Positions 1-32,569 are shown, counted from the first letter of the stretch. The stretch is DNA of 64,000 nucleotides from Cyanidioschyzon merolae (GCA_000091205.1 AP006485.2), one strand, 5' to 3'. Numbers and translations: made by a program. Notes: a model not told the origin generated them from the letters alone.

Positions 1-369
1 CCCCCCATTCCCCCCATTTACCTCCAACCCACGCACTTCACGCACTTCCCCATTAACGCGATGATCCCAGTGCCAATGCATATGTGATTATGACTTCTAT
101 CTCTCAAAATTCATTACTGATCCGTCTTCGGCGGTACGATCTGAGCGCGTACGCATCTGTTATATCTCCATCTGGCATTCCATGATCATTACTGTTTTAC
201 CTCCAGCTTTTTTGTTTTTGGTTTTGACAGAACCTCTACACTGCCCAGACGGCCGTGACCTCCGGATCGATAATCGTTTCAGGAAATCAACCGTTCCGCT
301 GAATAGTTTCTTCAGCTTCCGTTGTATTTACTTAATCTCGGCTTTATTGATCTAGTCAGGCTTTTTATT

Positions 370-775
370 CGGCGCCAATGCCTGCCGTAAGCACCCGCTC
401 TATCGTTTGTATCTCCGTTGCGGATATCCTCTGGTTACAGAGCAGCTTTTGCATACCACTGTGCTCGTTGGAAGTGGCTTGGTTCATACAACATGGAATG
501 ACAGAGATTTATTTTGTTGCGAGCCTCCAAGCTGTTGTTGCAGACCCTCTGCCTGTGGGAGTGCGAAGCGTTGTAGTACGTGTTTACTGCATCCAAGTTG
601 GGGCCCAGACGCAGCATAGCCCCTCCTAGTCCCAAAAAATTCGTTTCGGACGAGATGGAAAGGAGCGACACATCACCTGCCACTGAAGTTCTAGACGGGG
701 CACTATCTGGTAGAATCTCGCGGCTCGGAGACCTTCCGCCTAATAGATGACTGTTGGAGCAAACGTAAAAACCTC
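370..775 (+). repeat. Non-coding dispersed repeat, family 3 copy (partial)
   Basis: Shares blocks 'tgcctgccgt(a/g)agcacccgc', 'gctcctag(t/c)cccagaat' and 'ctcg..ggaccttccgcctaraaggta' with the copies at 22590-23150 and 34500-35030. Confidence 0.5.
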
Positions 776-1518
776 TTCCTATTGAAGTTTACTGTAGTTT
801 GCGATAGTGCTTGCTATCCCCTTTGTGGGTAATTTTTTTGCATTCTCTTCGTCGCGCACCTGTTAATGACTTATCCTGAAATTTGGCCGTCACATCACAC
901 CACGTGCTTCTCGCCGATCAAGAGAAACCTGCTAATGACCTCTTCTGGAGCGACTGTTTTATCCATCGCGGCCACTTTTATTTTGCGATCGGGTCGTAGC
1001 AAAATATAGTTTTGGCTTCAATGGCGTTTCAATCTTCAAGTAAATGTTCTCAGCTGATTTTCGCTGCTCAAAGTAGAGGTCTTCAATGAGTTTTTCTCCT
1101 AAAAAATTAGACTAATGTAATTGGGGGAGTGGGTTTGGGGTGGCCGGTATTGTGTATTTCAGAATGAAACGTGACTTAGTGCCGATCGAAGAGGATCAGG
1201 AAAAAAAGAAGATGCAACATGGGGAGGTCTTACATTGAAGGCTTCAATAGTGACGTCTGTACGACGAGATGGTGGTGGAATCCTATCTTTTCCTACATAT
1301 CAATGATCCTTACCACTCAATGTTGCGAGACGTTATCAGAAACAGTGTCGGTTCGTACGCCATGTATATTTTTAACTTTTCTTGAAGACTGCGGCGTTTG
1401 GAGAGCGAGCTGCATCGGGACGTGACGCACACCGCGAAGGTGATGTTTCCGGAAGATTTTTCACAATAGACTTACATCAACCACCTGATTGTTTTTAATG
1501 GGAAAACATCGGGGATAA

Positions 1519-1893
1519 ATGAGCGAGTGCATGCCTTCCTCAAAAATTACGCCAAATACCTCGTCAGCGATGCTGAACGAGGGGGTGACGCCGACATTTT
1601 TCGAATACAGGGCAATGAGGTGCCTTACGAAAGTGAGGAACCATAAGATCGTAAACCTCGATTGTTTCATGAAACGCGTCGTCTTTGCGCTGTACCCGGG
1701 CCCGTTTCGCAAAGGGATGCTGGCAATCATCGATTGCAAGAAGAGCGATCGCCAGCATGAACAGGAGATCAGAATCGTCGACAAGAGGACATCAAACAGG
1801 AGAAAGAATCTTGCTTTCGTTATCCGCGCCACTATTCTAAAACATCGTTCGGTCTTGGGTCATGTCATCCCAAGTGAAAACTGTCAGATATGA
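1519..1893 (+). pseudogene. ORF-A companion protein remnant (copy C)
   Basis: 'FMKRVVFALYPGPFRKGMLAIIDCKKSDRQHEQEIRIVDK' aligns with ORF-A of copy B ('FMIRAVFALYPGISRKGIWAMINGVTNDRKYEDEIEFVDK'). An upstream in-frame stop breaks the N-terminal part. The TGA stop overlaps the next ATG (ATGA at 1890). Confidence 0.55.
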
Positions 1894-3306
1894 TCAAAGA
1901 AGACGAAGAGAGAATTTACTCCCTCATCTTGCCACACCTCATTTTTTCGGACAGAGAACACGCACGCAAGGCCGACATGGAGCAGAGTGCAGAAAAAATG
2001 ACGGGTGGGAGTACCGACATTGAAGGCCTTCTCCAGATGCGATTCATTGTGGTTCAGTTATGCGAGTTCAATTCATATTCTGTGAATATCGACTCTAGAG
2101 TCCTTTACGCCTTCACGAAATAGATCGGTCCAGAGCTCGATGTAAACTACAAAGAGATCACCGGCGAAGACCGGGACACCCTGGTAGAATATCTTCGATT
2201 TCAAGCGTCCCAAACCGGCCAAAGAAAGGTACTCACGGGGGCCATCGATTACGATGTGGTATACATAAACCTACACTCTCAGGGGTTGAAGGCACGTCGT
2301 CCTATCCCGTCTTCGTTATCTCACTTGCCGAAGCGCGTACACAAGAAGACGGGCGATGGAACGTATAATGCCCACGAAATCGTCTTTCTCTGCGGCCTTA
2401 ACCCCTTGAATACGAATATCATCAGCATCGCTGCTCCCAGGCGTGCGGAAGGTGGTACTGACGGCAACATGCCTCAGAAAGACCTGTTTTTGTTGGTGTT
2501 CTCGAGAGCGAGATGGTATCGGGAATCCGGGAGATTGAGTGCGAGGATGGACATCGACCCGTGGAGTGCAACAGTTAAGGATAACCCGGAAACTTTGAGC
2601 GAGGTGACATGCCCAAGAGCGGACTCTCTAGTTTTTTGGATATTCAAAGAAGTTCGCGTTGCACACTGGGATGCGCTGTGCAAGGAATACTCAAAGCCAC
2701 GGTAGACTCGTTTGCAAATGAATCTACGCGGTGGGAGGCAGCATGCATTTGCGAATTTCTTCAATCAGTTGAGCGCCTTGAAGGAGAATGAACGTCAGTG
2801 GCTCGTATTAGCATACGGAGCATGGCGCTGGAAGACCCAAAAAGGGTGTACACCAGCTCCAACGACTAGGGTGTACAAGGGGTGCGCAAGGCGTTTCGTT
2901 ACGATACCTGTAGATGAGTTCCGAACATCGTATACACACCATGAACTGGGTTGTACACTTCAGAGAATGGAGATTGAAAAGTGCCAGTGGAGCCCTGAGG
3001 ATGTGAAAACTACGGACCGCTGACAGAAGAGCAAACGGAAAGGAAAGCGATAGTTCGAGGGCTACTTGCATAAGTACCACCAACGGCAAGAACCGGAAAG
3101 AGTTTTTGAACCGAGACTTTAACGCCGCTATCAATAAAAGTAGATGTGCGGTACTAGAGAAAAGTCCTCCAGAATGGACAAAAGAGAACTTTCTAAGAGA
3201 ACCTCTCAAAGTCGAACTATATGAGAAACAATTGGAAGCAGTAATAGGTGTCCGGTCCAAAAAGACTGGGAGGCGTCTGCACTTCAGTTGGAGACGTTTC
3301 GTCTAG
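1890..3306 (+). pseudogene. TnpB/Fanzor-like RuvC nuclease, frameshifted (copy C)
   Basis: Pieces 1890-2123, 2256-2705, 2712-3023 and 3106-3306 lie in three frames. They carry 'GLNPLNTNIISIAAPRRAEGGTDG' (RuvC-I), '[31 protein letters not shown]' (RuvC-II plus Zn finger) and 'MNRDFNAAINKSRCAVL' (RuvC-III). Confidence 0.65.
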
Positions 3307-4015
3307 GGCGGACCGGTCGCCGCTACTGCACTATGCCGACGTCGTTCCGCTTTAGAACGGCGTTTGGCTGTGGGTGCAACTTTTCGACGTCATGCTTTCC
3401 AGTGCAGAAGGAGTAAAATTGTGCCACTGTAATCCATTTCTGCTTCTCTGCCGTCTGCGCCAATTCTGGATCATGTATCACTGTGGATGATATTTTGCGT
3501 TTTGAGAAAGTGTGGTTTACTGCTAAGGTTCATCTCTTTCCATGAATCAGTTCCTGAATGCGTTTACGCCACAGCTCCAAGTGTCAAGCAACAGAGCTGA
3601 CCGCTAACATCCACGACTGCGGAAACGGTCTAGAGGAGTCGTTTGCGCCCTGGCACAATCAACCACATCTCCAAGCTTCAATGTACTTGACTCACGGATC
3701 GCGAATTCTCATGTGCCCTGCATGTGCTGCTATGATCATCAACCAATATATGCACAACCCAATCTTGTTCTCAGATTATTTTCTTCACCGGTTTTTTCGA
3801 ATGCGCTCATATATAGATCCGGCTTCGCATATTCAGGTGCAGGACTCATGCCGCCTCCGTGATCCACGTGCTTAGCAGTATGTTGTCGAAGGCTTTTACG
3901 CAGTGAACCATACATTATTACCATTGCTTTGATAAGAACCTCAGCAGGTAGGCCTCGCAGCTTATGTTGTATCCCATATGCTAGTTGCGCCTGTACTCTA
4001 CGTCAAACTGGATGC

Positions 4016-6433
4016 TCAGCAGGCAGCACCTATAACAATCACGCGAGCCTTCTCCAATATTTGCGCTGCACTTGCGTATATGCGGTAGAGCCTTTCCGCG
4101 TACGGCATGATAGACGCAGTACTGTCTGAACCGAGCGCTGAACCGCACATGGTGCGCAGCACATCTACCCGCGCAGGCCATAGCACAGCGTGGGCGACCT
4201 CTTGCGAGGCGTACGTGCCGTAGCAGCTTACGAGTAGACCATCAACCACGAGGCGTCCGGAACGCGTTAGTGGCGCATAGACTCCCTCACGCGTTACATA
4301 AGTGTCGATCGCGACGACAGGGTCCGCTCTATGGGCAGCGGCATCGAGAAGGGCGTCGCCTATGCGTATATGTTCTGCAAAAACTGCCTCGAGGGCGAGG
4401 CTCTCCAGCTCGGGCCTCTGATGTATTGTCTGCTGGTGACGTAAAAGATCTGAAAAAGGGGTCATCCCAAAATCCCGGACTCTCATGCTTGCGTGCATAC
4501 GGTACACTAAATGCTGACTCGTCAAGCGCAACTGCTTCCCTGATAACGTCTTAATAAGTAGGACCTCCGCGGTTGCGCCAGGCTCTTTGTGCAACCATCC
4601 AAGTATAGTATCCTCTAGCAGCTGTCCACTTCTATCGGCCCCAATCACACTCATACCCGAGCGCAACTCACTCATCGGCCGAATACTGCCCAGACGATCG
4701 ATCAGCACAGTGGCATCCTCCGGGAAGCAGATCGTGGTGCCGCCATTGATAGGAATTTTCGTGACATTCGCTGCTGTGGACGGTGTCGCTGAGAGTGATG
4801 GAGTCGCCGACGCAGTCGGTGTCGCTGTAGGCGTTGAGGTTGAGGTTGGTGTCGGCGTCGGTGTCGGCGTCGGTGTCGGCGTCGGTGTCGGCGTCGGTGT
4901 CGGGGAAGGGGTAATCATTGATTCGCTGAGCATGAATATATCATTGAGCTCTCCCTTTCCTTCACTTGTGTTCGAGTATCCGAATCCTCCGAACAGTATC
5001 ATGCCGCTTTCAGTTGTATTCCAGAGAGCAGATCCATACCGAGCACCGGGAACGACGCTGGGACTGAAAGTCCTAAACATTCCGTAATCAGCGGGGGCAT
5101 TAATGACTGCGCTACCATTGATCCAAGCCCACTGGCGCTGCTCCACGTTAAACAACCAAAGATCGTTCAGATCGCCGCTTTCGCTACTACTGTTCCCGTA
5201 CCCTTCACCACCAAAAAGCTGTAGATTTCCTGAAGCGTCAATGAAGCCAACTCCATACTCGCGGGATCCAGGATAGCTTGCAGCATCGGTATTGCCAAAT
5301 ATGATATACGATCCAGGGATCGAGATCGTGGTATTGCCTGCGACAAACGTCCATATGGACGTACTAATGTTATAAAACCAAAGATCATTCAAAAATCCTG
5401 GATAAGATTCCGAACCATTTCCATAACCAAACCCACCAAACATCCACAGATTGGCTTTTGAATCCGTCCATGTAATTGCACCCTGGCGAGCTCCGGGAGC
5501 ATTCGATCTATTGGCAATATCAGGTTCACTGTAATTGCCAGGCTGGTTTACCGATTGTGACCCACCCATATATGCCCACAGTGATAAGGATCTGTTGAAG
5601 CACCAAAGGTCTGAAAACAGGTACGAATAGCAATTCTCACCTCCAAACAACCAGAAGTTTCCATCTGCGCCCAGCCAGAACGCTGCCTTTAAGCGAGCCC
5701 CAGGGTTGTAAGAGGGATCGTAGGAACCCATTGGCCCGTACGTGGGTAAGGCATTGATTGTATCGTTGCCGTCTACCCAGGTCCAGTTTCCACTAACTGT
5801 GTCGTACTGCCACATGTCGTTAAGGCAACCGATATTACCATTTCCATCCAATCCGTAGCCTCCAAACAACCAGAAATGCTCCTCGTCTGCACGCCAGAAT
5901 GCACTGGCCTCCCTTGCGCCCGGAATATTGAGGGCGCTTCCGACTCCAAGTGTACCATAGTTTCCAGGCACATAAATGTCCATAGATCCGCCGATCCATG
6001 CCCACTCGAGCGAGGTAACGTTCAGTCTCCACAGATCGTTAAGATAACCTCCAGAGGAGTTCGCGTATCCAAAGCCACCAAAAAGGTACAAAACGCCGGG
6101 GCTTCCAACCCAGGTCGAGGAGTAGTGGCGACCGCCTGGGACGTTATTCGAGGACGCCACGTTCAGCGTACCATACTTCCCATAATTGTTGACACTAGTT
6201 TCTCCACCTATCCAGGTCCACCGCACGGGATAAGCCGGTGCCCCTGCGCCTACCAAAACCCAAATACGGGCCGAGAACCACAAACAAACGACCAAAACAC
6301 GCAGCCAGAGTACCCGCCTGAGACTACTCCGCCTCAAGCCTCCTTTCATAGGTGAATCTTGTCTTCGTACAGCTCGGGAAGCTCGCCCAAAAGCGTGTCC
6401 AAAGAAGGAAATCGCCGGCTTCAGAACACGCAA
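4016..6433 (-). CDS. Secreted Kelch-repeat / Thr-Pro linker / Hint-domain (Hedgehog-type 'Hog') protein; the true start is probably the Met of 'MKGGLRRSSLRRVLWLRVLVVCLWF' near 6349
   Basis: Single ORF of 805 aa with an N-terminal signal peptide, repeated 'WLFGG / LFGGFGY' kelch or galactose-oxidase-like blades and a (PT)n linker. The C-terminal Hint domain reads 'CFPEDATVLIDRLG...TSQHLVYRM...GVYAPLTRSGRLVVDGLLVSCYG'. Confidence 0.8.
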   Translation of the reverse strand: MRVLKPAISFFGHAFGRASRAVRRQDSPMKGGLRRSSLRRVLWLRVLVVCLWFSARIWVLVGAGAPAYPVRWTWIGGETSVNNYGKYGTLNVASSNNVPGGRHYSSTWVGSPGVLYLFGGFGYANSSGGYLNDLWRLNVTSLEWAWIGGSMDIYVPGNYGTLGVGSALNIPGAREASAFWRADEEHFWLFGGYGLDGNGNIGCLNDMWQYDTVSGNWTWVDGNDTINALPTYGPMGSYDPSYNPGARLKAAFWLGADGNFWLFGGENCYSYLFSDLWCFNRSLSLWAYMGGSQSVNQPGNYSEPDIANRSNAPGARQGAITWTDSKANLWMFGGFGYGNGSESYPGFLNDLWFYNISTSIWTFVAGNTTISIPGSYIIFGNTDAASYPGSREYGVGFIDASGNLQLFGGEGYGNSSSESGDLNDLWLFNVEQRQWAWINGSAVINAPADYGMFRTFSPSVVPGARYGSALWNTTESGMILFGGFGYSNTSEGKGELNDIFMLSESMITPSPTPTPTPTPTPTPTPTPTPTSTSTPTATPTASATPSLSATPSTAANVTKIPINGGTTICFPEDATVLIDRLGSIRPMSELRSGMSVIGADRSGQLLEDTILGWLHKEPGATAEVLLIKTLSGKQLRLTSQHLVYRMHASMRVRDFGMTPFSDLLRHQQTIHQRPELESLALEAVFAEHIRIGDALLDAAAHRADPVVAIDTYVTREGVYAPLTRSGRLVVDGLLVSCYGTYASQEVAHAVLWPARVDVLRTMCGSALGSDSTASIMPYAERLYRIYASAAQILEKARVIVIGAAC

Positions 6434-7249
6434 CGAACGATCGCAAGACTAGACGTTTTCAATGACTGCAGCCACGTGCGTTGCGCGCGCAACGTTGGAA
6501 ACGCACGTTGCGCAACGCATGCAGCCGGTTCTGATCTCGAGATGCATGCGAGCACTTGAACCTGAACTATGTGGACCAATATAGAATGTAATGGACATTT
6601 ATGCACATGGACCAATCATCCAAAAGTTTGTTTCGATCTGCTACTGGTGGGATCCTGTACTAAACGGTACACATGGGACACCAACCAAGATGCACTAAAG
6701 GCCTTGGACTTGAAATGGAACAATCATGTCCTATTATTGTGTAAAAACGAATACGATGCATCATAATGCCAAAGTTCGGTTCCAAAGAGTCGCAGCAGCA
6801 CGCCCCTTGGGGCAGCCTGCAGCTGCCCCGATGCGCGAGCGCAAATGCGCGCATTCCGGGCAGCGGCGGTGTTGGCAATACGAAACAGTGGCGACATTTG
6901 TGTAAAGAGCGTCGAGGCGCCATCGTGGCGTCGGACACGTGTGCTTCATCGATCTGAGTAGCGTCTCGCGCGGTGCGCGCATCGCGCTCGGTGAGCGTCC
7001 CTGGGAGGTCGGGTAGTCAACGGACGCGACGCACTTGTCGCCGTTGAAGGGAAATGTGATCCTCAGGATTCGTTGGCGTGTTGTTCTAACATAAAACTTG
7101 TATTTGTATTGCAATCGTAACAAAATATATGGTTTCATCTCAGTCATGTTGCAGCCCTCAAGTAAAAATACTGGAGTGTTTTTTTCGCAGTATACAACAG
7201 GAACCTTCAAAGAGGGTTCTTTCTCAAAAAAAAACTAAAAAGGAAAGCT

Positions 7250-8042
7250 ATGAAAAAGCAAGTCCACGATCCTGGAGGTCCAGGGTCGGCGGCTGCTAGA
7301 AAAAAAACAAAAGACGGTGCCGAGTTCATAAGAAAAGGAAGAGAAAAAGAAGCAAAAATGGGAGGCCCTACGTAGAAGGCGGCAAGAAAGACGACCGCAC
7401 TACGAGGTTGTGGTGAAAACCTGTCTTCTTGGACATATCAAGGATCCCTACATGGAAAAGTTGCGAGACATTATCGAAAAACGTGTCGGCTCGTACTCCA
7501 AGAGCATTGTCAATGCGTCGTCAGGACTAATGCATTTGGTGAGGGAGATGTACCACGAAGTTACGCACATGGAAACGGTCGAGGTACCCTGACGGGTTTT
7601 TCGATAAGACTTTACTCATCACCTGATGCTTGGTACAGAGGAAACGCGGAAGGAAAATGAGCTAGTAAATGCCTTCCGCGAGAAACATCCCTTTTACAGT
7701 TTCGAGGGTACTCGATACAAGGGTGAACGGGATATTTACACTTACGAAGCGATGAAGTATCTCACGAATCTGCAGAACCATTTGACAGCGGACCTCGAAC
7801 GTTTTATGATACGCGCCGTGTTTGCACTTTACCCGGGCATCTCTCGCAAGGGGATATGGGCGATTATCAATGGCATCACGAAAGATCGCAAGCGTGACAA
7901 TGAGGTCGAATTTGTCGACAAGAAGGCCTCACGCAGGAGCACAAATGAGGATTCCGTCATCCGTGCGGTTATACAAGCGCACCGGGCAATCTCGAGGCTG
8001 GCGAATCCAGCAGGCAAGATATCAGAGTTGAAAAAAAGATAA
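7250..8042 (+). pseudogene. ORF-A companion protein (copy A), frameshifted
   Basis: The conserved leader ATG at 7250 ('aaaggaaagctATGaaaaagcaagtccacgatcc') gives 'MKKQVHDPGGPGS...', a basic Lys-rich leader ending at TAG 7373. The body then lies in other frames (7410-7592, 7626-8042) with a +1 insertion relative to copy B. It retains 'YTYEAMKYLTNLQNHLTADLERFMIRAVFALYPGISRKGIWAIINGITKDRKRDNEVEFVDKK'. Confidence 0.55.
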
Positions 8043-8160
8043 AATGCTGTCGCCTCATTCTGCTCGATTTCGTATTTCTGGACCGAGAGCTCGAACGCAA
8101 AGCGGAGATGAAGCTGAGTGAGGAAAAAATGAAGAATGGGAGAGACGGAAGGCGTTCCTA

Positions 8161-9600
8161 ACGGGGAAGCGCTTCAACGGGGTTCCGTTGTGCAACATCA
8201 AGTCACATTTTGTGAGTACCGACTCCGGCGTCCTTTATGGCATCATGGTGGGGTTCAGTCCGGAGTTCAAAGTTAGCAGGGAGGACTTCACCGGCGAGAA
8301 CCGGGTGACGTACTGGAAGAGTATCTTCGATTTCAAACCTGTAAAAGTCAGCAAACAGAAGGTATTCACTGGGTTGATCGAAACCGATGGAGTAGCCTTG
8401 TGCGTACACTACCGGCGGTTGAAGAAAGATCGGCCAGTCCCTCCCTTGGCTGCGCCCGTGACGAAGGATGCAGAAAACAAAGAGGCGGATGCTGCGACGC
8501 ACAGAGTGCAGGATAACGACTTTATTGTTGACGCGGCGAAGGATGACGATGAAAAGGAGGCGGTTCCTGAGACGGAGGAGATGGAGGATGACGACTTTGC
8601 GGTTGGCGCGGTGAAGGATGAAGAAAAGAAGGAGGCGGTTCCTGCGATGCAGGAGGTGCAGGATAACGACCTTGTCATTGGCACGGTGAAGGATGAAGAA
8701 AAGAAGGAGGCGGATCTTGAGACGCAGAAAGTGCAGGATAACGACTTTGTCGTTGGCGCGGACCCTGGAAATACGAATATCATCACCATCGCAGCACCGA
8801 AGCGTGCTGAAGATGGCACTGACGGTAACTTACGTCAGAAAGACATGCGTCTTTTAAGATTCTCGAGAGCGAGATACTACCGGGAATCAGGAACCATGAA
8901 TGCAAGGAAGAGAATCGAAACATGGAATGCCGGAAGAAAGGATCTCCTGGAAGCCTTGAGCGAGGTGACTAACCGAGGAGCGGACTTTGAAGCTTTTCGG
9001 AAACTCATGAAAGTTCGCGTTGCTCATTGGGATGCGCTGTGGGAGAAGTATACCAAGCCTCGGTGGGCTCGTCTGCGTATGAATCTATACGGTGGGAAGC
9101 AGCGGGCGTTTGCCAACTTTTTCAATCAGTTGAGTGCCCTCAAATAGGACAAGACTCAAAGGCTCGTAGTAGCAAATGGGGCAGGGCGATGGAAGACCCA
9201 AAAAGGCTGTACACCAGCTCCAACGACGCGAACGTACAAAGAGTGCGCAAGGCGTTTCGTTACGATACCTGTAGATGAGTTCCGAACATCGTATACACAC
9301 CACGAGCTGGGTTGTACACTTCAGAGAGTGGAGATGGAAAAGTGCTAGAGGAGCCCTGAAGATATAGTAAAGTATGGACCTCTGACGGAGGAACAAACGA
9401 AAAGGATGCGAAAGTTCGGGGACTACTTGCATCAGCATGTACAACCAGTGATGGCAAGAAACGTATGGAGTTTGTGAACCGAGACTTTCATGCCGCTATC
9501 AATGTCAGGAGATGTGCGGTGCTGCAGACGAGAACTCCAGAGCTGACACGAGAGAACTTTGTTGGACAACCTCTCAAAGACGAACTATATGAGAAAAATG
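8161..9600 (+). pseudogene. TnpB/Fanzor-like RuvC nuclease (copy A), disrupted
   Basis: Homologous to 16784-18025. The start codon is ACG, there is an in-frame TAG at about 9143, and there are more stops downstream. An internal ~84-nt tandem expansion is listed separately below. Confidence 0.7.
8455..8750 (+). repeat. Roughly 84-nt in-frame tandem repeat (about 3.5 units) inside the copy A nuclease ORF
   Basis: The repeating protein unit is 'KDEEKKEA(V/D)...[12 protein letters not shown]', and copy B has a single unit. The array ends at the RuvC-I motif 'GADPGNTN'. Confidence 0.7.
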
Positions 9601-9730
9601 GGAAGCAGTAGTAGGCAGCCGGCCGAAAAAAAAAGCCGGGAGGCGTCTGCATGTCAGTTGGACACTTTTCATGTGGGCGCCGGTCGCACTGCAGTAAACG
9701 CCCGACGTCGTTCGAGTTAGAACGGCGTTT
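9600..9730 (+). ncRNA. Conserved non-coding 3' tail of family 1 element (candidate omega-RNA / right-end region)
   Basis: 'gggaggcgtctgca..tcagttgga.ac.ttt...gggcg.ccggtcgc..ctgca.ta.cgcccgacgtcgttc.gtt.agaacggcgttt' is conserved between copies A and C and, more diverged, copy B, while the flanks are unrelated. Confidence 0.35.
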
Positions 9731-10700
9731 TGGAGCAGTCTGCAGAGCATCTGGTACTTTTTGCTTTGCCTTTATCGATATATGGATAAGGCTGTGGTTA
9801 CGATTCTTCTAGTACGGTCTTCTGACAGCCCGGGTCATTTCACTGCCTATTTTTTTCCAGGCACACCTTTTCATCTGCAGTGCGTCGACCGAATAGCCGT
9901 GAGAAGTTTACCCTCTTGGCCCTATAACTTTCTGACTTCATGCTTTCCACAGCACGAGCGCTAGAATTGTGCGATTCTAAAGCACTTCTGTCTTTCTGCC
10001 GCCTGGTGCTATTCTTGATCGTATTTCACTCAGAACAGCCTTTTTGGTTTTTGGAGAAATTCTGTTTCAAAGGTTTATCTGATATCTTCGCAACTGTCAA
10101 CTCCGTAATGCTTTCACAATACTACTCCAAGTGACACGCAACGAGGAGAAGCACGAATTTTTGTATCTGAAAGTAGACTCCATCGGAACGCCCCGCAAAC
10201 CTCTAGCCAGCATACTATTTCGATGCATAGATGCATGCGAAGCTCTGCTCACTCAGTCTCATGTGACCGACATCTGCTGCTATTCCTCTTCGCAAGTCTT
10301 GGCGCTACCGTACTTCTCTGTATATAAAACTGTATTCCGCGGCTTGCCTCGATTGCGCACAATAATAACTGTATGCAACTTTGCTCGTTCGTATAAGTTG
10401 CTATGGTTGTGCCCCTTATCAAAATCCCTGACAAAACGCAGTGCGAACCTTTTTCGAAATGTAACTCGTATGATCATCATCGCTTGATCATTATCCTAAG
10501 ACAGAAAAAGCGGAACCTAGAGTAGTACCATCGGTGCTGTTCGCCCCCGTGCTTCAGAGCAGATTGCCAGTTCAGCAAGCTGCAACTACAACACTTACGT
10601 AAGCCTCCGTTAAAACACGTGCTGCACTCGTCCAGTTATGATATAGCCTTTCTGCGTACTGCATGATACCCATAATACCCTCTGTGCCGAGCCCTGGTCC

Positions 10701-12767
10701 CTATAACTTGCGCAGAGCATCGACCGGCGCAGGCCACAACGCAGCATATGCCACGGCATGCGATGCGGACATCCCGTAGCAGCTCACCAGAATACCGTCG
10801 ACGACAAGGCGCCCTGAGCGAGTCAATGGCGCATAGAGACCATTGTGCGTAACGAAAGTCTCGATTGCCACCAAGGGGTCTGGCAGGTGCGCCGCAACAT
10901 CCACTAGAGTGTCGCCAATGCGTATATCTTCCGCGAGATCTACCTCAATGGCAGAGGTACCCAGCTCAAGCCTCTGACGTATTTGCCTCTGCTGCTGTGG
11001 CTGATGCTTCCCTGAAAGAGAAGAAGCTGTGGTCGTAACACTGTAAAAGTCTCTAGAGTGTCCAAGCATCCGATATACGAGATGCTGCCTCGTCAAACAC
11101 AGCTGCTTTCCGGAGAGCGTCTTGATCACCAGAATCTCCGCAGTAGCGCCGGGCTCGTTATGCAACCATCCTAGTACACTATCATCGACCAGTTGCCCAC
11201 GTCCATTGACCCCGATCGCGGCCATACCTGATCGAAGCTCGCTTATCTGCAGACTGTTGCCCAGACCATCGATCAGTACCGAGGCATCCGCGGGGAAGCA
11301 GACCGCAGAGCCTTCGCCTACAGCGGTCTGCGTCACATTTGTCGTTGCCGCCGGTGCTGCAGTAACGGAGCGTGTCGGTGATGCCGTCGGAGTCGGTGTT
11401 GCGGTCGGCGTAGGCGTCGGTGTTGCGATGTATAATGTGAAGAGGTCGTTATAGATACCTGAGCTTCCTTGGCCTCCGAACAGGACCGGGTCGTTTTGAT
11501 CGGTATCCCAAAGAACTGCATCAGCTCGCGGAGGTGGAAGCGTTGTATTGCTTGTCTTGTTAAGCTCGCCGTAACTATAGGCTCCATCTGTTGTATTGTC
11601 ACCGTCTACCCACGCCCATTCGAGACTCGTAATATTGAACGTCCACAGGTCGTTGCAGAGACCAGGTGAATAACCACCGAAAAGATACAGGGTGTTTGTC
11701 GAGTCTACGAATCTAGAGGAACCAGCTCTGTACCCGGGACTGTTATACGATGAGAGCACTCTTTTGTCGCCGAAAACTGACTCATTCGAGCCAACGCTAC
11801 CATCTCCAGATATCCAGGCCCATGCTCTAGAGCTGATATTGAAGAGCCACAAATCATTCAGAAAGCTGCGAATTCCGATACTCAGTCCTAGACCACCAAA
11901 GAGCCAAAAGTTGCCAGCAAGGTCTTGCCATGATGCGGCTCCGGAACGTCCAGCGGGATAGTTGCTCGGTGATGTCTGCCGAAACGCACCATAACTTCCA
12001 GAGGCAATCTGCTATTCAGTCCCTTCAATCCATCCCCATTCGTTGGTCACTATGCTGCACTACCACTAGTCACCGTAATATGCACCATTAGGACTAGATC
12101 CACCAAAGAGATAAAACTGGCCAGCCAAACCAACCCAGGTGGCGGGTAAGAAACGAGTGCCGGGCGTATTGTTCGAAGACGACTTCCCAAGAGTGCCATA
12201 TGTAGGGGAAATAATGGTCTTGTCGAAGCCCTGCACCCATGTCCACTCGCTCGACGATACATTATACATCCACATATCACAATACCCCGAGTTCAAATTC
12301 CGGCCTCCATATAACCAAAGGTTTCCGTAGCTGTCGCTCCATGCAGCGAGTTGCCTCCTCGAGGGCGGAGCGTTGCTCTCTTTGGGAACTCCGAGGAAAC
12401 CTTATACCCCTGCAAGGTTGGGGGATACAGAGCCTCCAACCCAGGTCCAAGTCTACGCGCTCAGATTGTAGTACCAGAGATTATCAACGACGCCACTCGG
12501 GACGCGACCACCAACCAACCAGAGCACTACGTCAACGCCGGTCCAGGAAGCCGCACCGTGCTGCGCCGGAGGCACGTTGCTGCTGTTTGGTACACCCTGA
12601 ACATCGTAGCTAACCGCGCTACCGGTAGAGTTACTAATGCCGATCCAGGTCCATAAAAAAGTATTCACGGCCGAAAAATCCCCTTGAACTGTGTGCATAT
12701 AAGACACAACCAAGATTACAACTAGGTGTCTCACTGCAGAAAAATCTCGTATTCGGATTTGAAACAT
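10701..12767 (-). pseudogene. Second Kelch-(TP)n-Hint 'Hog' paralog, interrupted by in-frame stops and frame breaks
   Basis: The signal-peptide start is 'MFQIRIRDFSAVRHLVVILVV' (12767) and kelch blades 'FYLFGGSSPNGAYYGD' and 'FWLFGGLGLS' follow. Two adjacent in-frame TAGs ('ggtgacTAGtggTAGtgc', about 12077-12085) and one more interrupt the frame, and 12296-12453 is frame-discontinuous. The intact 3' part 10701-11852 carries the TP linker and Hint domain 'CFPADASVLIDGLG...GLYAPLTRSGRLVVDGILVSCYG'. Confidence 0.6.
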
Positions 12768-13334: not shown

Positions 13335-15206
13335 TTACACTGTGGAGAAGGCGCTCGCAGACGTCGACACAGAAGCTGAAACTGAAGCACTCGCGGATAC
13401 ACTCACAGAAGCTGTCGCAGAGGCCGTCGCAGAGACTGTTGCAGACACCGTCGCAGAGGGTGTCGCTGTCACAGCCACGGGACTCGGAGTCGGTGTTGGA
13501 CTAATGACCACACATTGGTTGTTGATGCACTCCTCGTCAGCGCGGCAGCAACGAACCTTGTTCACAAGGTTATCCGAAGGGATCAGGTACGTCCCGCACT
13601 GCTTCGTAGGGTCCTTGCACACACAGAACGACGGCAGCAGCACCTGTTGTTGCTGCTGTTGTTGCAATTGCTGCTGCTGCTGCTGGTTGTTGTTGTTGCT
13701 GAACGGGTTGTACGTGCAGTTCTGCGTCTCGGCGTTGCAGCACTCCGGGCCACACGGAATATAGCTCGAGTTCGATACGTTGCCGGTCGTGCCGCTCAGC
13801 GAGTTCGACACATACCCGTAGGTCTGGCACACGTACTCGGTCATCGGCTGGAAGCACTCGTTGCTGAGCCCCAGGCAGCAACCAGCCTCCAGACACTGCT
13901 GCGGCGAGTAGCTCGTGCGCTGCGTCCCGTGCTGCTCCCCGTACAGAAGCGTGTTCAGCAGACGCACAAACTGGTTATTGTTGATGTTATTGTTCAGCTG
14001 CTGGTTCTGATTCACCGCGTTCGTGCACGGCTGGCGCTCAAACTCGCCCACCGCGCACGTCTTCACGGGCTGGAAGCAGTACGGGTTCGACTCAAAGTCG
14101 CTCTGCTGCTTGCCGTTCTGCACCCACTGGTTCTGCGCCTGCGAGTCGTAGCAGCAGCCCTGGGCATAGCACGTAAACTGGTTGATGCCCGCGTTGCCGC
14201 ACGGCTGGCGCTGCGCTCCCGGTGACGGGCAGAGGGGAACCGGTGCCTGCACCTCCTGCAGCGCTACAGAGGCCTGCGGTGCATGGTTGATGTCGTAGTA
14301 GCACCAGGGTGCCAGGATGCCGTTCGCTGTGGGCTGCCAGCAGCATCCCGGTATCGCAGTGCACTCGTCGGGGTAGATATAGCTCCAGCCGCAGGGGACG
14401 CGCTGTGTCACTGGAACAGCGCTGCAGGCCGCTGAGACGCTCTTCAGGGTGCACGCGTTCGTCTGGGCGTTGAAGCAGCATCCGACTTGCTCGCAAGCGT
14501 CCTGGTTTGTGTACTGGCCCGGAGAACCGCAGATTTCACTCGTGCAAACTGGTGTTGGCGTTGCACTCGGTGTCGGGGTTATAATAGCAAGTGTCGCACC
14601 AGAGGGTAGAATTGTAGAAAGCAGGTCGGTGAAAGTTTGAAGCACAATTTGCAGTTCACTGGCGAGGGATGTGTCTCCTGAGATCTTAATCACATAGGTC
14701 ACAACACTGCCGCCCGAAGTGCGCACCAATGCTCGTTCCAGACGAGGATTGCTCTTGTCTAATGTGGTGGCGAGGCGCCTTGATGTACCCGAACCGAAGA
14801 CCGTGTCGCAGTTATCAGTCACGCTAACATTCACTTCCAGGCCTATGAAGCGAGCCTCGAGATCGTTCTGCAAATCCGTCGCCACGGCCAAACAAAGAGA
14901 AAGATTCTGAACGGATATCGCAATCGAGGTGGAAATCGTCGTCGGCACGATTGTTGGTGACGTTGTTGTAGTCGGTGTCATCGTAGGCGTCGGCGTCGGT
15001 GTCATCGTCGGCGTCGGTGTCATCGTCGCTGACACCGATGGAGCCACCGAACTTGTTGGTGACAATGTTGCAGTCGCTGTCATTGTCGATTGTGCTTCGG
15101 CCCCTAGCGTGGCACACCCAACAGCAAGCGACAGAGCTGCGACCAAGACGAACAACTGTTTACACAGTTCGCCGAAGTTGCGATATTTTCCTGCTCCTGG
15201 TCTCAT
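13335..15206 (-). CDS. Secreted multi-trefoil (P-domain) glycoprotein with TP/ST-rich, poly-Q and poly-N regions
   Basis: There is a signal peptide 'MRPGAGKYRNFGELCKQLFVLVAALSLAVGC' (ATG at 15206). Trefoil signatures include 'RVPCGWSYIYPDECTAIPGCCWQPTANGILAPWCYY' and 'RQPCGNAGINQFTCYAQGCCYDS...NPYCFQ', with two more degenerate units and (TP)n/(ST)n linkers. Confidence 0.7.
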   Translation of the reverse strand: MRPGAGKYRNFGELCKQLFVLVAALSLAVGCATLGAEAQSTMTATATLSPTSSVAPSVSATMTPTPTMTPTPTPTMTPTTTTSPTIVPTTISTSIAISVQNLSLCLAVATDLQNDLEARFIGLEVNVSVTDNCDTVFGSGTSRRLATTLDKSNPRLERALVRTSGGSVVTYVIKISGDTSLASELQIVLQTFTDLLSTILPSGATLAIITPTPSATPTPVCTSEICGSPGQYTNQDACEQVGCCFNAQTNACTLKSVSAACSAVPVTQRVPCGWSYIYPDECTAIPGCCWQPTANGILAPWCYYDINHAPQASVALQEVQAPVPLCPSPGAQRQPCGNAGINQFTCYAQGCCYDSQAQNQWVQNGKQQSDFESNPYCFQPVKTCAVGEFERQPCTNAVNQNQQLNNNINNNQFVRLLNTLLYGEQHGTQRTSYSPQQCLEAGCCLGLSNECFQPMTEYVCQTYGYVSNSLSGTTGNVSNSSYIPCGPECCNAETQNCTYNPFSNNNNQQQQQQLQQQQQQQVLLPSFCVCKDPTKQCGTYLIPSDNLVNKVRCCRADEECINNQCVVISPTPTPSPVAVTATPSATVSATVSATASATASVSVSASASVSASVSTSASAFSTV

Positions 15207-15877
15207 GCTTCTAGAGCTAAGAACTTCTTGTCGACACTAGGTTTTTGTGAATACTTATTTCTTACAGCTGCACCGGTTGCTGAGATGTTTTGTCGCACCG
15301 CGAGTTTCGCTATCTCTCTGGCTACGAAACAGCCCAGTCGGCTACCGAGCGCTGTGTGAAGAACACCAACGCAGCGGCGATAGCGCCTGTGAAAAAATTT
15401 AAAACGCGCAACATGCCTCGAAGCCGCGGCAATCGATGATCACGGCGAAGGAGAAACGGTTCGAGACGATCCCTGCAGGCGCGGTTTCGATTTCGCGTTT
15501 CGCGCCAAAAGCGATTGCGCAGACGTGTCCCCGAGCGAGCTCTGGTTTGCTTCATTATCGGCGTGGGGCACGTGTCCTTCATCGATCGGCGTAGTGTCCC
15601 GCGAGGCGCACGCATCGCGGTCAGTGAGCGCACCTCGGAGATCGAGCAGTCAACTGACGCGACGCGCATGGCTCCGTTGAAGGGAAACGCGGTTGGGATC
15701 AATAGCATGTTGTTCTACCGGAAAAAGTTGGATTTCCGTTCAGGTCGTAGCCAAGTACAGTCTTTCAGTTCGTTTCTGTTTGAAACTTCAAACAAGTCTA
15801 GTCAAGTGTTTTTCGTGGTTTATAGTAGACGCGTTCGTACCGCGTTCGTTCGCAAAAAAAACAAAAAAAGGAAAGCT

Positions 15878-16545
15878 ATGGAAAAGCAAGTCCACGATCC
15901 TGGAGGCCCAGGGTCGCCGGCTGCCAGAAAAAATACAAAAAACAGTGCCGAGTCCAGAAGAAAAGGAAGAGAAAAAGAGGCAAAAGGGGGAGGCCCTACG
16001 TTGAAGGCGGCAAGAAAGACGACTGTACGACGAGAAGGTGGTGAAACCCTTTCTTCTTGGACATATCCGTATGGGAAAAGTTGCGAGACGCTATCAAAAA
16101 ACGTGTCGACTCGTACTCCATGAGTATTGTCAAGACGTCGTCAGCACTGATGCATTTGGTGAGGGAGATGTATCGCGACGTGACGCACATGGAAACGGTC
16201 GAGACTCCGGACGGGTTTTTCGATAAGACATTTATTCGTCACCTGATGCTTGGCACAGGGGAAGCGCGGAGGGAAATTGAGCTAATGCATGCCCTCCACG
16301 AAAACTTCGCAGAATTCCGCTTCGAGGGTACCCCATTCAGGGGTGACCCGGATATTTACACATATGGGGCGATGAAGTACCTCACGAACCTGAAGAACCA
16401 TTTGACAATGAACCTCGAACTTTTCATGATACGCGCCGTGTTTGCACTCTACCCAGGCATCTCTCGGAAAGGAATATGGGCGATGATCAACGGCGTCACG
16501 AACGATCGAAAGTATGAAGATGAGATCGAATTTGTCGACAAGTAG
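15878..16545 (+). CDS. ORF-A companion protein of family 1 element (copy B); leader and body are in different frames and the C-terminus is truncated by a TAG
   Basis: Leader ATG at 15878 gives 'MEKQVHDPGGPGSPAARKNTKNSAESRRKGREKEAKGGG...' in frame 2 up to 16123. The main conserved frame 16057-16545 reads 'EKLRDAIKKRVDSYSMSIVKTSSALMHLVREMYRDVTHMETVE...YTYGAMKYLTNLKNHLTMNLELFMIRAVFALYPGISRKGIWAMINGVTNDRKYEDEIEFVDK*'. Copy A has AAG where copy B has the TAG stop. Confidence 0.55.
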
Positions 16546-16783
16546 GTGCCAAACGAGAGCACGAATGAAGCCTCTGTAATCCGTGCGGTTATACGAGAGC
16601 ACCGTGCAGTCTTGGGGCTGGCGAATCCAACAGACAATATCAGAGTTGAAAAAAGATAAGGAAAGATACTATCGCCTCGTCCTGCGGTATTTTGTGTTTC
16701 TGGACCGAGAGCTCGAACGCGAAGCGGAGATGAAGCTGAGTGAAGAGACAAATGATGAGTAGGAGATACGGACGGCTTTCCTA

Positions 16784-18025
16784 ATGGGTAAGCGCTTTAA
16801 CGTGGTTCCAATGTCCAATATCAAGTCACATTTTGTGACCATCGACTCCGCGGTCTTTTACGGCATCATGAAAGAGATCAGTCTGGAGTTCAGTGTCAGC
16901 AGGGAGGACTTCACCGGCGAAAACCGGGAGACGTACTGGAAGAGTATCTTCGATTTCAAACGCCTCAGAGTAAGCAAACAAAGGGTATTTACTGGGTTGA
17001 TCGAAACCGATGGAGTATCCTTGTGTATAGACTATCGGCGGTTGAAGAAAGATCGTCCAGTTCCGCCCTCGGCTGCGCCCGTGCCGAAGCATGAAGATGA
17101 GAAGGAGGCGGATCTTGAGACGCAGAAAGTGCAGGATAACGACTTTGTCGTTGGCGCGGACCCTGGAAATACGAATATCATCACCATCGCAGCACCGAAG
17201 CGTGCTGAAGATGGCACTGACGGTAACTTACGTCAGAAAGACATGCGTCTTTTAAGATTCTCGAGAGCGAGATACTACCGGGAATCAGGAACCATGAATG
17301 CAAGGAAGAGAATCGAAACAGGGAATGCCGGAAGAAAGGATCTCCTGGAAGCCTTGAGCGAGGTGACTAACCGAGGAGCGGACTTTGAAGCTTTTCGGAA
17401 ACTCATGAAAGTTCGCGTTGCTCATTGGGATGCGCTGTGGGAGAAGTATACCAAGCCTCGGTGGGCTCGTCTGCGTATGAATCTATACGGTGGGAAGCAG
17501 CGTGCGTTCGTCAACTTTTTCAATCAGTTGAGCGCCCTCAAGGAGAATGAAAATCAGAGGCTCGTAGTAGCAAATGGGGCAGGGCAATGGAAGACCCAAA
17601 AAGGATGTACACCAGCTCCAACGACGCGAACGTACAAAGAGTGCGCAAGGCGTTTCGTTACGATACCTGTAGATGAGTTCCGAACATCTTATACACACCA
17701 CGAGCTGGGGTGCACACTTCAGAGAGTGGAGATGGAAAAGTGCCAGAGGAGCCCTGAGGAAACAGCAAAGTACGGACCGCTGACGGACGAGCAAATGGAA
17801 AGGAGGGCGCAAGTGCGGGGATTGCTTGCATTAGTACGTACAATCAATGGCAAGAAACATATGGAGCTTGTGAACAGAGACTTTACCGCCGCCATCAATA
17901 TAAGGAAATGTGCGGTGCTGGAGGAAAGACCTCCAGAGTCGACACGAGAGAACTTTGTTGGACAACCTCTCAAAGTCGAACTATATGAAACAAAGTTGGA
18001 AGCAGTAGTACATGGCCCGCCGTGA
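16784..18025 (+). CDS. TnpB/Fanzor-family RNA-guided-type RuvC nuclease (413 aa, intact ORF)
   Basis: ATG at 16784. Motifs are RuvC-I '[21 protein letters not shown]', RuvC-II '[31 protein letters not shown]' (the E, then H/H/C/C residues in place of a C4 Zn finger) and RuvC-III '[20 protein letters not shown]'. The size and motif order match TnpB/Fanzor2-like proteins. Confidence 0.8.
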
Positions 18026-18125
18026 AATGCTAGGAGACGTACGCACATCGTCGAAAACGCTTCGTCCAGGGCGCGTCACTCGCTACTTCTGTACAACGCT
18101 GGCGTCGCTCGACTCTAGGTTTGCA
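18026..18125 (+). ncRNA. Family 1 3' tail (copy B), candidate omega-RNA region
   Basis: 'gctaggagacgtacgca...gggcgcgtcactcgctacttctgtacaacgctggcgtcgctcgactctag' aligns with the tails of copies A and C. Confidence 0.3.
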
Positions 18126-32145: not shown

Positions 32146-32569
32146 CGGCAGTCACCTGGTGATGCAGCACAAGCACTGCTGCTGAACCTGGGAAGCACTC
32201 TGTGGATGAGTTCTTCACGCGCGCACGCGCGCCCATAGTCTTTCAACTCAGTTGCATGATACCCGTAGGTGCGTAGAATAGAATGCTTTTTCGTGGTTTG
32301 TAGCAGCTGCCTTCGAATGCGTTCAATTCCAAAAATAGAAAATAGAAGGAAAACGTATGAATTTGGGAGTTGGGCATCCTAGAGGGCCGTCGCGGCCAGG
32401 TTCTACGAAGAAACGAAAGAATCCTCTTCTCACCGGCTATCGAGCGATGAGGACGAAGATAAAGAAGGCGGGAGATAGGAGTGAGAAAAGGAGTTTGCCC
32501 GACGAGACGATGTGGAGACACTGGTGACTCTGAGGGCACGAGTTCTAGGAATCCTTGCTATGGTGCATT

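What the first reader, a model, noticed from the sequence alone, without database searches (positions are those of the whole stretch)
4016..12767. Tandem pair of secreted Kelch-(TP)n-Hint 'Hog' proteins, one intact and one decaying, separated by a Fanzor element
The genes at 4016-6433 and 10701-12767 (both minus strand) are paralogs with the same architecture: a signal peptide, about six kelch or galactose-oxidase-like blades (WLFGG / LFGGFGY), a Thr-Pro linker and a C-terminal Hedgehog/intein-type Hint domain ('CF...TxxH...G.YAPLTRSGRLVVDG.LVSCYG'). Hint domains autocleave and can attach the N-terminal domain to a lipid or release it. Kelch-Hog fusions are uncommon, since known protist Hogs mostly have other N-domains. 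The second copy has two adjacent in-frame TAG codons ('gacTAGtggTAGtgc') and a third downstream, so it is a pseudogene or a sequence error. TAG is a genuine stop here, for example at the end of RPN11. A Fanzor copy (6.9-9.7 kb) lies between the paralogs.
Basis: partly seen in the sequence, partly recalled or inferred. Interest (0 to 1): 0.7.

Follow-up and report, generated by a model that had tools for sequence, protein, structure and literature searches.

The report
Subtelomeric Kelch-Hog gene and its pseudogene

Summary
Window 4016-6349(-) encodes an intact 777-aa protein. It has a signal-like N-terminus, a six-blade Kelch propeller, a Thr/Pro linker and a Hedgehog-type Hint/Hog domain (Pfam Hint 1e-33; best structural match Drosophila Hh-C).

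The second copy is a true pseudogene. It has six premature stops rather than three, and its original ORF ran to 10572, not 10701. Four metagenome contigs of the same locus carry the same five internal stops. Intact ~84% relatives have sense codons at all six positions.

The window starts with the Cyanidioschyzon telomere repeat, so the pair lies 4-13 kb from a chromosome end. Kelch/Trefoil/Hint genes joined by Thr/Pro/Ala linkers are the published, most prevalent subtelomeric duplicated genes of Cyanidiales (Nozaki 2007; Cho 2023; Plant Cell 2026).

The element between the copies is a degenerate CMe-1A Fanzor1 (Bao and Jurka 2013). It is one of three relics here, and at least one was duplicated together with a gene unit.

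Minor additions:
- The cholesterol-activating Asp is naturally His.
- Hog domains evolve in concert within species, while Kelch types are old.
- Paralog DNA homology breaks at the linker.

Verdict: real, correctly read, already known.

The parts
1..18 (-). Two telomere repeat units (AATGGGGGG on the minus strand), marking a chromosome end
   Evidence: The repeat is described as unique to Cyanidioschyzon merolae in PMC1955436.
1167..3303 (+). Fanzor1 (CMe-1A) relic A, strongly degenerate, convergent with Hog1
   Evidence: tblastn of the published CMe-1 consensus covers residues 19-734 at 48-74% identity in 5 pieces in different frames. The relic, the spacer and the Hog half of Hog1 align as one 4.6-kb block (74%) to L006 and L016-L018.
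4016..6349 (-). Hog1: intact K+Hog gene, 777 aa (signal-like N-terminus, 6 Kelch blades, TP linker, Hint/Hog domain with ARR tail ending AAC)
4760..4915 (-). Thr/Pro linker coding repeat of Hog1 (12-nt repeat, residues 479-530); DNA homology to paralogous units ends here
6927..9701 (+). Fanzor1 (CMe-1A) relic B, with a 75-nt x4 internal tandem repeat at 8463-8761; convergent with Hog2
   Evidence: L008 confirms the order relic B - Hog2 pseudogene - Trefoil gene at 97% identity.
10572..12767 (-). Hog2: K+Hog pseudogene, ancestral 731 codons, six premature stops (12453-55 TAG, 12402-04 TAA, 12066-68 TAG, 12060-62 TAG, 12012-14 TAG, 10701-03 TAG)
13335..15206 (-). T-only member of the same K/T/H family: secreted TP-rich protein with Trefoil domains
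   Evidence: Pfam Trefoil 2.8e-13. It is homologous to the C-terminal half of the Cyanidiococcus K+T protein P0038, and 89-92% identical copies sit upstream of the intact K+Hog relatives in L012, L014 and L015.
15560..18049 (+). Fanzor1 (CMe-1A) relic C, the least degraded (coding part 15878-18049, three frame changes); inner edge of the subtelomeric block

Best explanation
The first ~18 kb of the window is a chromosome-end (subtelomeric) block of a Cyanidioschyzon-type red alga. It carries members of the lineage's known Kelch/Trefoil/Hog secreted-protein family, interleaved with dead CMe-1A Fanzor1 elements.

Hog1 is a functional K+Hog precursor. The proposed mechanism has these steps; only the sequence and fold features are shown, and the biochemical steps are inferred.
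1. It enters the ER through an N-terminal signal (inferred).
2. The C-terminal Hog domain carries out the Hedgehog-type reaction (inferred from conserved residues and fold). There is an N-to-S acyl shift at the Ile-Cys junction using the conserved Cys, Thr-x-x-His and second Cys.
3. The thioester is then resolved by a nucleophile that a His activates at the general-base position. The nucleophile is most likely a sterol or another lipid held by the C-terminal adduct-recognition tail.
4. This releases the N-glycosylated six-blade Kelch propeller on its O-glycosylatable Thr/Pro stalk. It is released either lipid-anchored on the cell surface or free.

Hog2 is a dead copy of a different Kelch subtype, disabled by six nonsense mutations and still decaying in the population.

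The units spread by ectopic subtelomeric recombination. The repetitive Thr/Pro linker acts as the junction where Kelch and Hog (or Trefoil) halves are exchanged or homogenised.
For: Chromosome end and family:
- The telomere repeat sits at window 1-18 (PMC1955436).
- The closest full-length homologs are Cyanidiococcus K+Hog proteins lying within 10 kb of contig ends.
- The family, its Thr/Pro/Ala linkers and its subtelomeric location are described in PMC9812998 section 13. PMC1955436 maps hedgehog-protein and trefoil-factor genes at C. merolae chromosome ends. PMC13353863 reports 17 Hog genes in Cz. merolae, mostly expressed in haploid cells and supported by proteomics.

Domains and catalytic residues:
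- Pfam confirms Kelch and Hint.
- The alignment to human SHH 197-382 places C198, T267 and H270 on Cys, Thr and His of Hog1, and places D243 on His.
- Among 157 Hog sequences aligned (the family members plus 145 of the 150 top-ranked relatives), the pattern is C / (89 D, 67 H) / T / H / C.
- The AF2 model has high-confidence Hint beta strands. Its best PDB matches are 6TYY (Hh-C D46H) and 1AT0, with TM 0.88-0.89.
- The engineered D303H variant keeps cholesterolysis (PMC9163320).

Pseudogene:
- There are six stops.
- The same five internal stops occur in L008-L011 (98.5-99.3% identical). L010 and L011 add a frameshift, and W689* is polymorphic among the alleles.
- The relatives have sense codons at all six positions (TTC, TAC, TTG, CAG, CAG, TGG); L012, L014 and L015 are uninterrupted over the parts held.

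Block structure:
- Relic A plus the Hog half of Hog1 aligns as one block to other units, and homology ends in the linker at 4869, 4834 and 11348.
- Kelch identities group across genera, whereas Hog identities group within species. P0003 and P0018 are 48% identical in Kelch and 88% in Hog.
Against: - No biochemical or expression data exist for this particular copy.
- The signal peptide was judged only from hydrophobicity. Its hydrophobic core is interrupted by Arg residues, and no predictor was run.
- The adduct is unknown. The tail after the Hint module is modelled with low confidence (pLDDT below 50), and its similarity to the SHH sterol-recognition motif is not significant on its own (second domain).
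- Ka/Ks of the pseudogene against intact relatives (0.42-0.49) is no higher than among intact copies (0.37-0.50). Relaxed constraint is therefore not visible at that scale.
- The intact 84% relatives may belong to other chromosome ends of the same genome or to co-occurring strains. Metagenome contigs cannot tell.
Confidence: 0.85

Rival explanations
1. Hog2 is a working gene, and its in-frame stops are sequencing or assembly errors, spliced-out introns, or recoded or read-through codons.
For: - The frame is never shifted over 2.2 kb in the window copy.
- Ka/Ks against intact relatives is below 1.
Against: - The same five internal stops are present in four separately assembled metagenome contigs.
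- Homology to Kelch motifs runs straight through the stop positions (D-*-W where the relatives and Hog1 have D-L-W; V-*-G where they have V-Y-G or N-Y-G), so these stretches are not introns.
- TAG and TAA terminate ordinary genes in the window.
- Two alleles carry an extra 1-bp frameshift, and the W689* stop is polymorphic, as expected for neutral decay.
Confidence: 0.03
2. The pair arose by a recent local tandem duplication, with a Fanzor transposon later jumping in between the copies.
For: - Both copies have the same orientation and architecture.
- The spacing between Fanzor relics A and B is roughly regular, about 6.36 kb.
Against: - The Kelch domains are only 36% identical. Each copy has much closer relatives elsewhere: Hog2 is 73% identical in Kelch to L012, and Hog1 is 56-59% identical to P0003 and P0038.
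- Relic A, the spacer and the Hog half of Hog1 align contiguously to other loci, so that relic was already part of the duplicated unit.
- The relics are 70-83% identical to each other and all are broken.
Confidence: 0.07
3. The Hint module acts as an intein or a bacterial intein-like (BIL) domain, or is an inactive structural remnant, rather than a Hedgehog-type adduct-transferring domain.
For: - Weak match to the intein N-terminal model (TIGR01445, E 0.016).
- Inteins and BIL domains appear lower in the fold search.
- The canonical general-base Asp is missing.
Against: - The protein ends about 60 residues after the Hint module, with a conserved tail and no C-extein.
- Pfam Hint (the Hedgehog type) scores 117 bits.
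- The best structural hits are Hh-C, with TM 0.88-0.89 against at most 0.83 for any intein or BIL entry listed.
- His at the Asp position is found in 67 of 157 aligned Hog sequences.
- His also supports cholesterolysis in Drosophila Hh-C D303H (PMC9163320).
Confidence: 0.08

Closest known systems
Cyanidiales subtelomeric K/T/H family (Kelch+Hint 'hedgehog protein' genes of Cyanidioschyzon merolae and Cyanidiococcus yangmingshanensis; Nozaki 2007, Cho 2023, Plant Cell 2026)
   Same: - Same architecture: signal peptide, Kelch, Thr/Pro/Ala linker, Hint.
- Same position next to the telomere repeat.
- Same neighbours: a Trefoil gene and CMe-1A relics.
- 48-55% protein identity to P0002, P0003 and P0018 over 95-98% of the length.
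   Different: Nothing categorical. This window adds one pseudogenised copy, with its lesions mapped and seen in several assemblies.
Metazoan Hedgehog C-terminal autoprocessing domain (Hh-C / SHhC; PDB 1AT0, 6TYY, 7E2I)
   Same: - Same Hint fold (TM 0.88-0.89).
- Cys nucleophile, TxxH and the second Cys (C143 equivalent) are conserved.
- A C-terminal tail sits where the sterol-recognition region lies.
   Different: - The cargo is a Kelch propeller on a mucin-like stalk, not the HhN signalling domain.
- The general base is His, not Asp.
- The residue before the Cys is Ile or Val, not Gly.
- The adduct is unknown.
Non-Hh Hog proteins of protists, red algae and mosses (Burglin 2008, PMC2362128)
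   Same: A secreted protein whose C-terminal Hog domain is joined to an unrelated N-terminal domain. Red-algal members were already listed there.
   Different: That survey covered Chondrus, Gracilaria, Griffithsia and Porphyra, with no Kelch N-domains and no Cyanidiales. There the motif-J cysteine is often replaced in red algae. Here the SCYG cysteine is kept; I did not map this residue onto Burglin's motif J.
Fanzor1 element CMe-1A of C. merolae (Bao and Jurka 2013, PMC3627910)
   Same: The three window copies match the published 734-aa CMe-1 consensus over almost its whole length at 48-85% identity. They contain the motifs [15 protein letters not shown] and NRDFNAAIN or close variants of them. 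The ~3 kb length and ~80% identity to consensus fit the published description.
   Different: All three are broken by frame changes. Copy B carries a 75-nt tandem repeat expansion. No RNA-guide or end sequences were examined.

Membership tests
Hog (Hedgehog-type Hint) domain proteins | Significant match to the Hedgehog-type Hint module | tested here: met
   PF01079 scores 117 bits (cut-off 29.7) for Hog1 and 88.9 bits for Hog2. phmmer to SHH gives 8.9e-11.
Hog (Hedgehog-type Hint) domain proteins | Catalytic residues: Cys1 nucleophile, Thr69-x-x-His72, Cys143 | tested here: met
   The pattern at the five catalytic positions is C/H/T/H/C in both Hog1 and Hog2, from an HMM alignment of 157 sequences. 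The SHH alignment maps C198, T267 and H270.
Hog (Hedgehog-type Hint) domain proteins | General-base Asp (D46 / Dme D303 / SHH D243) that activates the sterol hydroxyl | tested here: not met
   His occupies this column in every cyanidialean sequence. His is a frequent natural alternative (67 His against 89 Asp), and the D303H enzyme is active (PMC9163320). This is therefore a variant rather than a disqualifier.
Hog (Hedgehog-type Hint) domain proteins | Hint fold closest to Hh-C rather than to inteins | tested here: met
   The AF2 model has a Hint core with pLDDT 85-96. Foldseek top hits are 6TYY and 1AT0 (E 9e-12, TM 0.88-0.89), with inteins and BIL domains lower.
Hog (Hedgehog-type Hint) domain proteins | Adduct/sterol-recognition tail after the Hint module, with no C-extein | tested here: inconclusive
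   A conserved ~60-residue tail (IMPYAERLY...AAC) ends the protein. Its resemblance to SHH IHWYSQLLYQI is not significant on its own, and the model is low-confidence there.
Hog (Hedgehog-type Hint) domain proteins | Autocleavage at the X-Cys junction with transfer of an adduct | not testable with these tools
   Needs biochemistry or mass spectrometry.
Cyanidiales subtelomeric K/T/H duplicated genes | Kelch domain joined to Hint or Trefoil by a Thr/Pro/Ala-rich linker | tested here: met
   The description is in PMC9812998.
Cyanidiales subtelomeric K/T/H duplicated genes | Location within the subtelomere, next to the AATGGGGGG telomere repeat | tested here: met
   The repeat is at window 1-18 and the genes lie at 4-15 kb. 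The Cyanidiococcus homologs lie within 10 kb of contig ends.
Cyanidiales subtelomeric K/T/H duplicated genes | Multiple related copies in the same genome or population | tested here: met
   12 related metagenome loci at 51-97% identity (best segment) to the Hog2 query.
Fanzor1 (CMe-1A) element | Sequence identity to the published CMe-1 Fanzor1 protein | tested here: met
   tblastn with the consensus taken from supplementary file 3 of PMC3627910 finds three near-full-length copies.
Fanzor1 (CMe-1A) element | Recognisable TnpB/RuvC domain by HMM or fold | tested here: inconclusive
   No hit in Pfam, NCBIfam or PDB sequences. The AF2 model is unusable at pLDDT 36. Homologs carry a precomputed PF26935 that is absent from the local library. 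The D/E/D-type motifs are visible by eye only.
Fanzor1 (CMe-1A) element | Intact nuclease ORF | tested here: not met
   Every copy needs three or more frame changes to cover the consensus.

The most novel reading that the evidence does not exclude
The K/T/H genes may form a contingency-type surface-coat repertoire for the wall-less haploid cell. In this reading, old Kelch 'head' types are recombined at the repetitive Thr/Pro linker onto a species-homogenised, His-based Hog lipidation module. Subtelomeric pseudogenes such as Hog2 would serve as sequence donors, analogous to the variant surface gene families of parasites. The His general base might also allow attachment of sterols other than cholesterol.
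Probability: 0.12. Interest if true: 0.6.

Novelty: already known. Interest (0 to 1): 0.2.

Why it matters
This is a useful calibration case.

What remains open is biochemical, and it is of moderate interest:
- No non-animal Hog protein has had its adduct identified.
- These algal proteins carry a natural version of the engineered D46H 'general base swap', which broadens sterol tolerance in Drosophila Hh-C.
- They are expressed mainly in the genetically tractable, wall-less haploid cells of a model alga.

That makes C. merolae a practical system for asking what ancestral Hog domains attach to their cargo. The pseudogene, the Fanzor relics and the linker-bounded homology illustrate how subtelomeres shuffle and discard these genes.

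Tried and rejected
- Exact-protein look-ups for Hog1 and for the Trefoil gene found nothing on record.
- Fanzor could not be confirmed with Pfam, NCBIfam, PDB sequence searches (single sequence and profile) or AlphaFold2. There were no hits and the model had pLDDT 36. Comparison with the published consensus settled it instead.
- PF26935, precomputed on the Fanzor homologs, is not in the local Pfam copy or in the paper library, so its name is unknown.
- A RIP-like (transition-only) hypermutation origin for the stops was considered and rejected. The six changes include transversions: TAC>TAA, TTG>TAG and TTC>TAG against CAG>TAG twice and TGG>TAG.
- Introns were rejected because motif homology runs through the stop positions.
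- Ka/Ks did not separate the pseudogene from the intact copies.
- The word-indexed search with the Hint domain alone reached only 9 proteins. The exhaustive profile search was needed.
- The HGT survey of Cyanidiales (PMC6629376) does not mention kelch, hedgehog or trefoil by keyword.


Full report
**Check of the observation**

ORF listing and translation show two minus-strand genes. Hog1 is the ORF 4016-6433, with its first ATG at 6349 and a product of 777 aa. Hog2 reads in a single frame across 10701-12767.

Pfam finds the Hedgehog-type Hint module in both copies, at 1.1e-33 and 4.7e-25. It also finds several Kelch families. The two proteins are 40% identical overall (E 8e-153); split by domain, the Kelch parts are 36% identical and the Hog domains 60%.

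Hog1 has six [LM]FGG / D[LM]W blades and a Thr/Pro linker at residues 479-530. Its Kelch part has 14 N-glycosylation sequons against 5.5 expected from shuffles. Its N-terminus is a basic stretch followed by a hydrophobic one.

**Status of the second copy**

There are five internal ones: four TAG and one TAA, with coordinates.

The supposed natural stop at 10701-03 is a sixth nonsense mutation. The frame continues with the conserved tail and ends in ...VVVAAC followed by TGA at 10572-74. This matches the ...GAAC end of Hog1 and the ...AAAC end of the homologs.

TAG is an ordinary stop in this genome. It ends 8 of 16 long ORFs, including RPN11 and an ABC transporter.

A scan of metagenome contigs recovered the same locus four times, as L008-L011 at 98.5-99.3% nucleotide identity.
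- All four carry the five internal stops.
- L010 and L011 add a 1-bp frameshift.
- L008 and L009 still have TGG at codon 689.

Four ~84% relatives (L012-L015) read TTC, TAC, TTG, CAG, and CAG or GAG at the five internal positions. The two that reach codon 689 (L012, L013) read TGG there. L012, L014 and L015 are uninterrupted over the parts held, while L013 carries one stop of its own.

The stops are therefore real and shared by all the assemblies recovered, and further decay is still segregating. They mix transitions and transversions, so no special mutational process is needed. Ka/Ks does not separate the pseudogene from the intact copies.

**Where the segment sits**

The window begins with CCCCCCATTCCCCCCATT. 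That is two units of AATGGGGGG, the telomere repeat reported as unique to Cyanidioschyzon merolae.

The closest full-length homologs are two Cyanidiococcus yangmingshanensis proteins and a metagenome protein, at 48-55% identity over 95-98% of the length. The Cyanidiococcus genes lie within 10 kb of contig ends.

An ordinary gene of the window, the ABC transporter, is found residue-for-residue in many public assemblies. The organism is therefore well sampled.

**What else is in the block**

Reading from the telomere, the order is:
1. Fanzor relic A (+)
2. Hog1 (-)
3. Fanzor relic B (+)
4. The Hog2 pseudogene (-)
5. A TP-rich Trefoil protein gene at 13335-15206 (-), Pfam Trefoil 2.8e-13
6. Fanzor relic C (+)
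7. Housekeeping genes

HMM libraries, PDB sequence searches and an AlphaFold model all failed to identify the Fanzor. The supplement of Bao and Jurka 2013 holds the CMe-1 Fanzor1 consensus protein. tblastn with that consensus covers residues 19-734, 4-734 and 1-728 in the three copies, at 48-85% identity. Each copy is interrupted by three or more frame changes.

This fits their description of about 150 CMe-1A copies of about 3 kb, each about 80% identical to the consensus.

**How the units relate**

L008 reproduces the order relic B - Hog2 pseudogene - Trefoil gene at 97% identity. L012, L014 and L015 carry the Trefoil gene upstream of an uninterrupted K+Hog copy, and L014 also holds a piece like relic C beyond the Trefoil gene. 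L006 and L016-L018 align to window 327-4869 as a single 4.6-kb block at 74%, covering relic A, the spacer and the Hog half of Hog1.

At least for Hog1, the Fanzor relic was therefore part of the duplicated unit and not a later insertion between the paralogs. DNA homology between units stops inside the linker-coding repeats, at 4869, 4834 and 11348.

Identity matrices make the same point.
- Kelch domains fall into three old types shared across genera. Hog1, P0003 and the K+Trefoil protein P0038 form one type at 56-64%. P0002 and P0018 form another at 68%. Hog2 and L012 form the third at 73%.
- Hog domains group by species. P0003 and P0018 are 88% identical in Hog but 48% in Kelch.

This indicates exchange or homogenisation with the linker as the junction. 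Hog1 and Hog2 are neighbours of different subtypes, not recent tandem duplicates.

**Mechanism**

The alignment to human SHH puts Hog1's Cys, Thr and His on C198, T267 and H270. It puts a His on D243, the general base that activates cholesterol. The second catalytic Cys, in SCYG, is kept.

An exhaustive profile search finds 8205 Hog relatives at E up to 0.001. I aligned 145 of the 150 listed, together with the family members, 157 sequences in all. At the general-base position, 89 have Asp and 67 have His. His is therefore a common natural state.

The engineered Drosophila D303H enzyme keeps cholesterolysis and accepts more sterols. The AlphaFold model of the Hog1 domain has a confident Hint core. 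Its best PDB matches are that D46H mutant (6TYY) and wild-type Hh-C (1AT0), ahead of inteins and BIL domains.

The protein ends about 60 residues after the Hint module with a conserved tail, so there is no C-extein to splice.

I infer Hedgehog-type autoprocessing in the secretory pathway. It would release the glycosylated Kelch propeller on its Thr/Pro stalk, probably with a lipid adduct. The cleavage and the adduct are inferred, not shown.

**Comparison with what is known**

- Nozaki et al. 2007 mapped 'hedgehog protein' and 'trefoil factor' genes at C. merolae chromosome ends.
- Cho et al. 2023 describe Kelch, Trefoil and Hint genes joined by Thr/Pro/Ala linkers as the most prevalent subtelomeric duplications of Cyanidiales. 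They count 11 K+H genes in Cyanidioschyzon and three in Cyanidiococcus.
- A 2026 Plant Cell paper reclassifies them as non-Hh Hog proteins. It counts 17 Hog genes in Cz. merolae and reports mainly haploid-cell expression with proteome support.
- Burglin 2008 had listed Hog domains in other red algae, none of them with Kelch.

Outside this lineage the fusion does look rare. Ten long Hog relatives carried HH_signal, MACPF, trypsin or extra Hint modules as N-domains, and never Kelch.

**Verdict**

It concerns a published gene family in its published genomic setting. The additions here are the following:
- The corrected anatomy of the pseudogene and its confirmation across assemblies.
- The identification of three CMe-1A relics, at least one of them part of a duplicated unit.
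- The linker-bounded, domain-wise incongruent evolution of the family.
- The natural His at the general-base position.

Interest is low, and the novelty class is 'already known'.

Noticed in passing
window 1-18: The window opens with two units of the Cyanidioschyzon telomere repeat (CCCCCCATT)2, so it starts at a chromosome end. GC content is also lower in the first ~12 kb (47-53%) than in most of the rest (mostly 53-62%).
   Followed up: yes
window 13335-15206 (-): A 623-aa secreted TP-rich protein with Trefoil domains and poly-Gln/Asn runs. It is a 'T-only' member of the same family and corresponds to the C-terminal half of the Cyanidiococcus Kelch+Trefoil protein P0038.
   Followed up: partly
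window 8463-8761 (+), inside Fanzor relic B: A 75-nt tandem repeat (4 copies, 80% matches) encodes an acidic KDEEKKEA...QEVQDND segment of the Fanzor protein. Its copy number differs among homologs; P0132, for example, has more units.
   Followed up: no
window 32533-32772 (+) and 50548-50871 (-): Two short isolated fragments resemble the C-terminal part of the CMe-1 Fanzor protein, at 59% and 32% identity. They lie among housekeeping genes, and the second sits just upstream of the pyruvate kinase ORF.
   Followed up: no
Hog1 residues 1-470 (window 4940-6349): Apart from Cyanidiococcus proteins, every named protein among the 120 best database matches to the Kelch propeller is bacterial (Flavobacteriales, Fulvivirga, Chitinophagaceae, Burkholderiales, Planctomycetota), and the rest are unnamed metagenome proteins. 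They are about 40% identical over the whole propeller. This hints at a bacterial origin of the Kelch module. A published HGT survey of Cyanidiales does not mention it by keyword.
   Followed up: partly
L013, near codon 38 of the K+Hog gene: One of the ~84% relatives of Hog2 carries its own single in-frame stop (EDTF*WTW). Loss of K+Hog copies may therefore be recurrent, or this may be an assembly error.
   Followed up: no
C-termini of Hog1 (window 4019-4030), ancestral Hog2 (10575-10586), P0002, P0003, P0018: All full-length family members end in a hydrophobic stretch followed by an invariant Ala-Cys (GAAC, VAAC or AAAC) as the last residues. The role of this terminal Cys is unknown.
   Followed up: no
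Homologs of the Fanzor ORF (P0130 and others): The precomputed Pfam accession PF26935.1 is attached to many homologs. It is absent from the local Pfam copy, so the window ORF gets no Pfam hit although a curated model apparently exists.
   Followed up: partly
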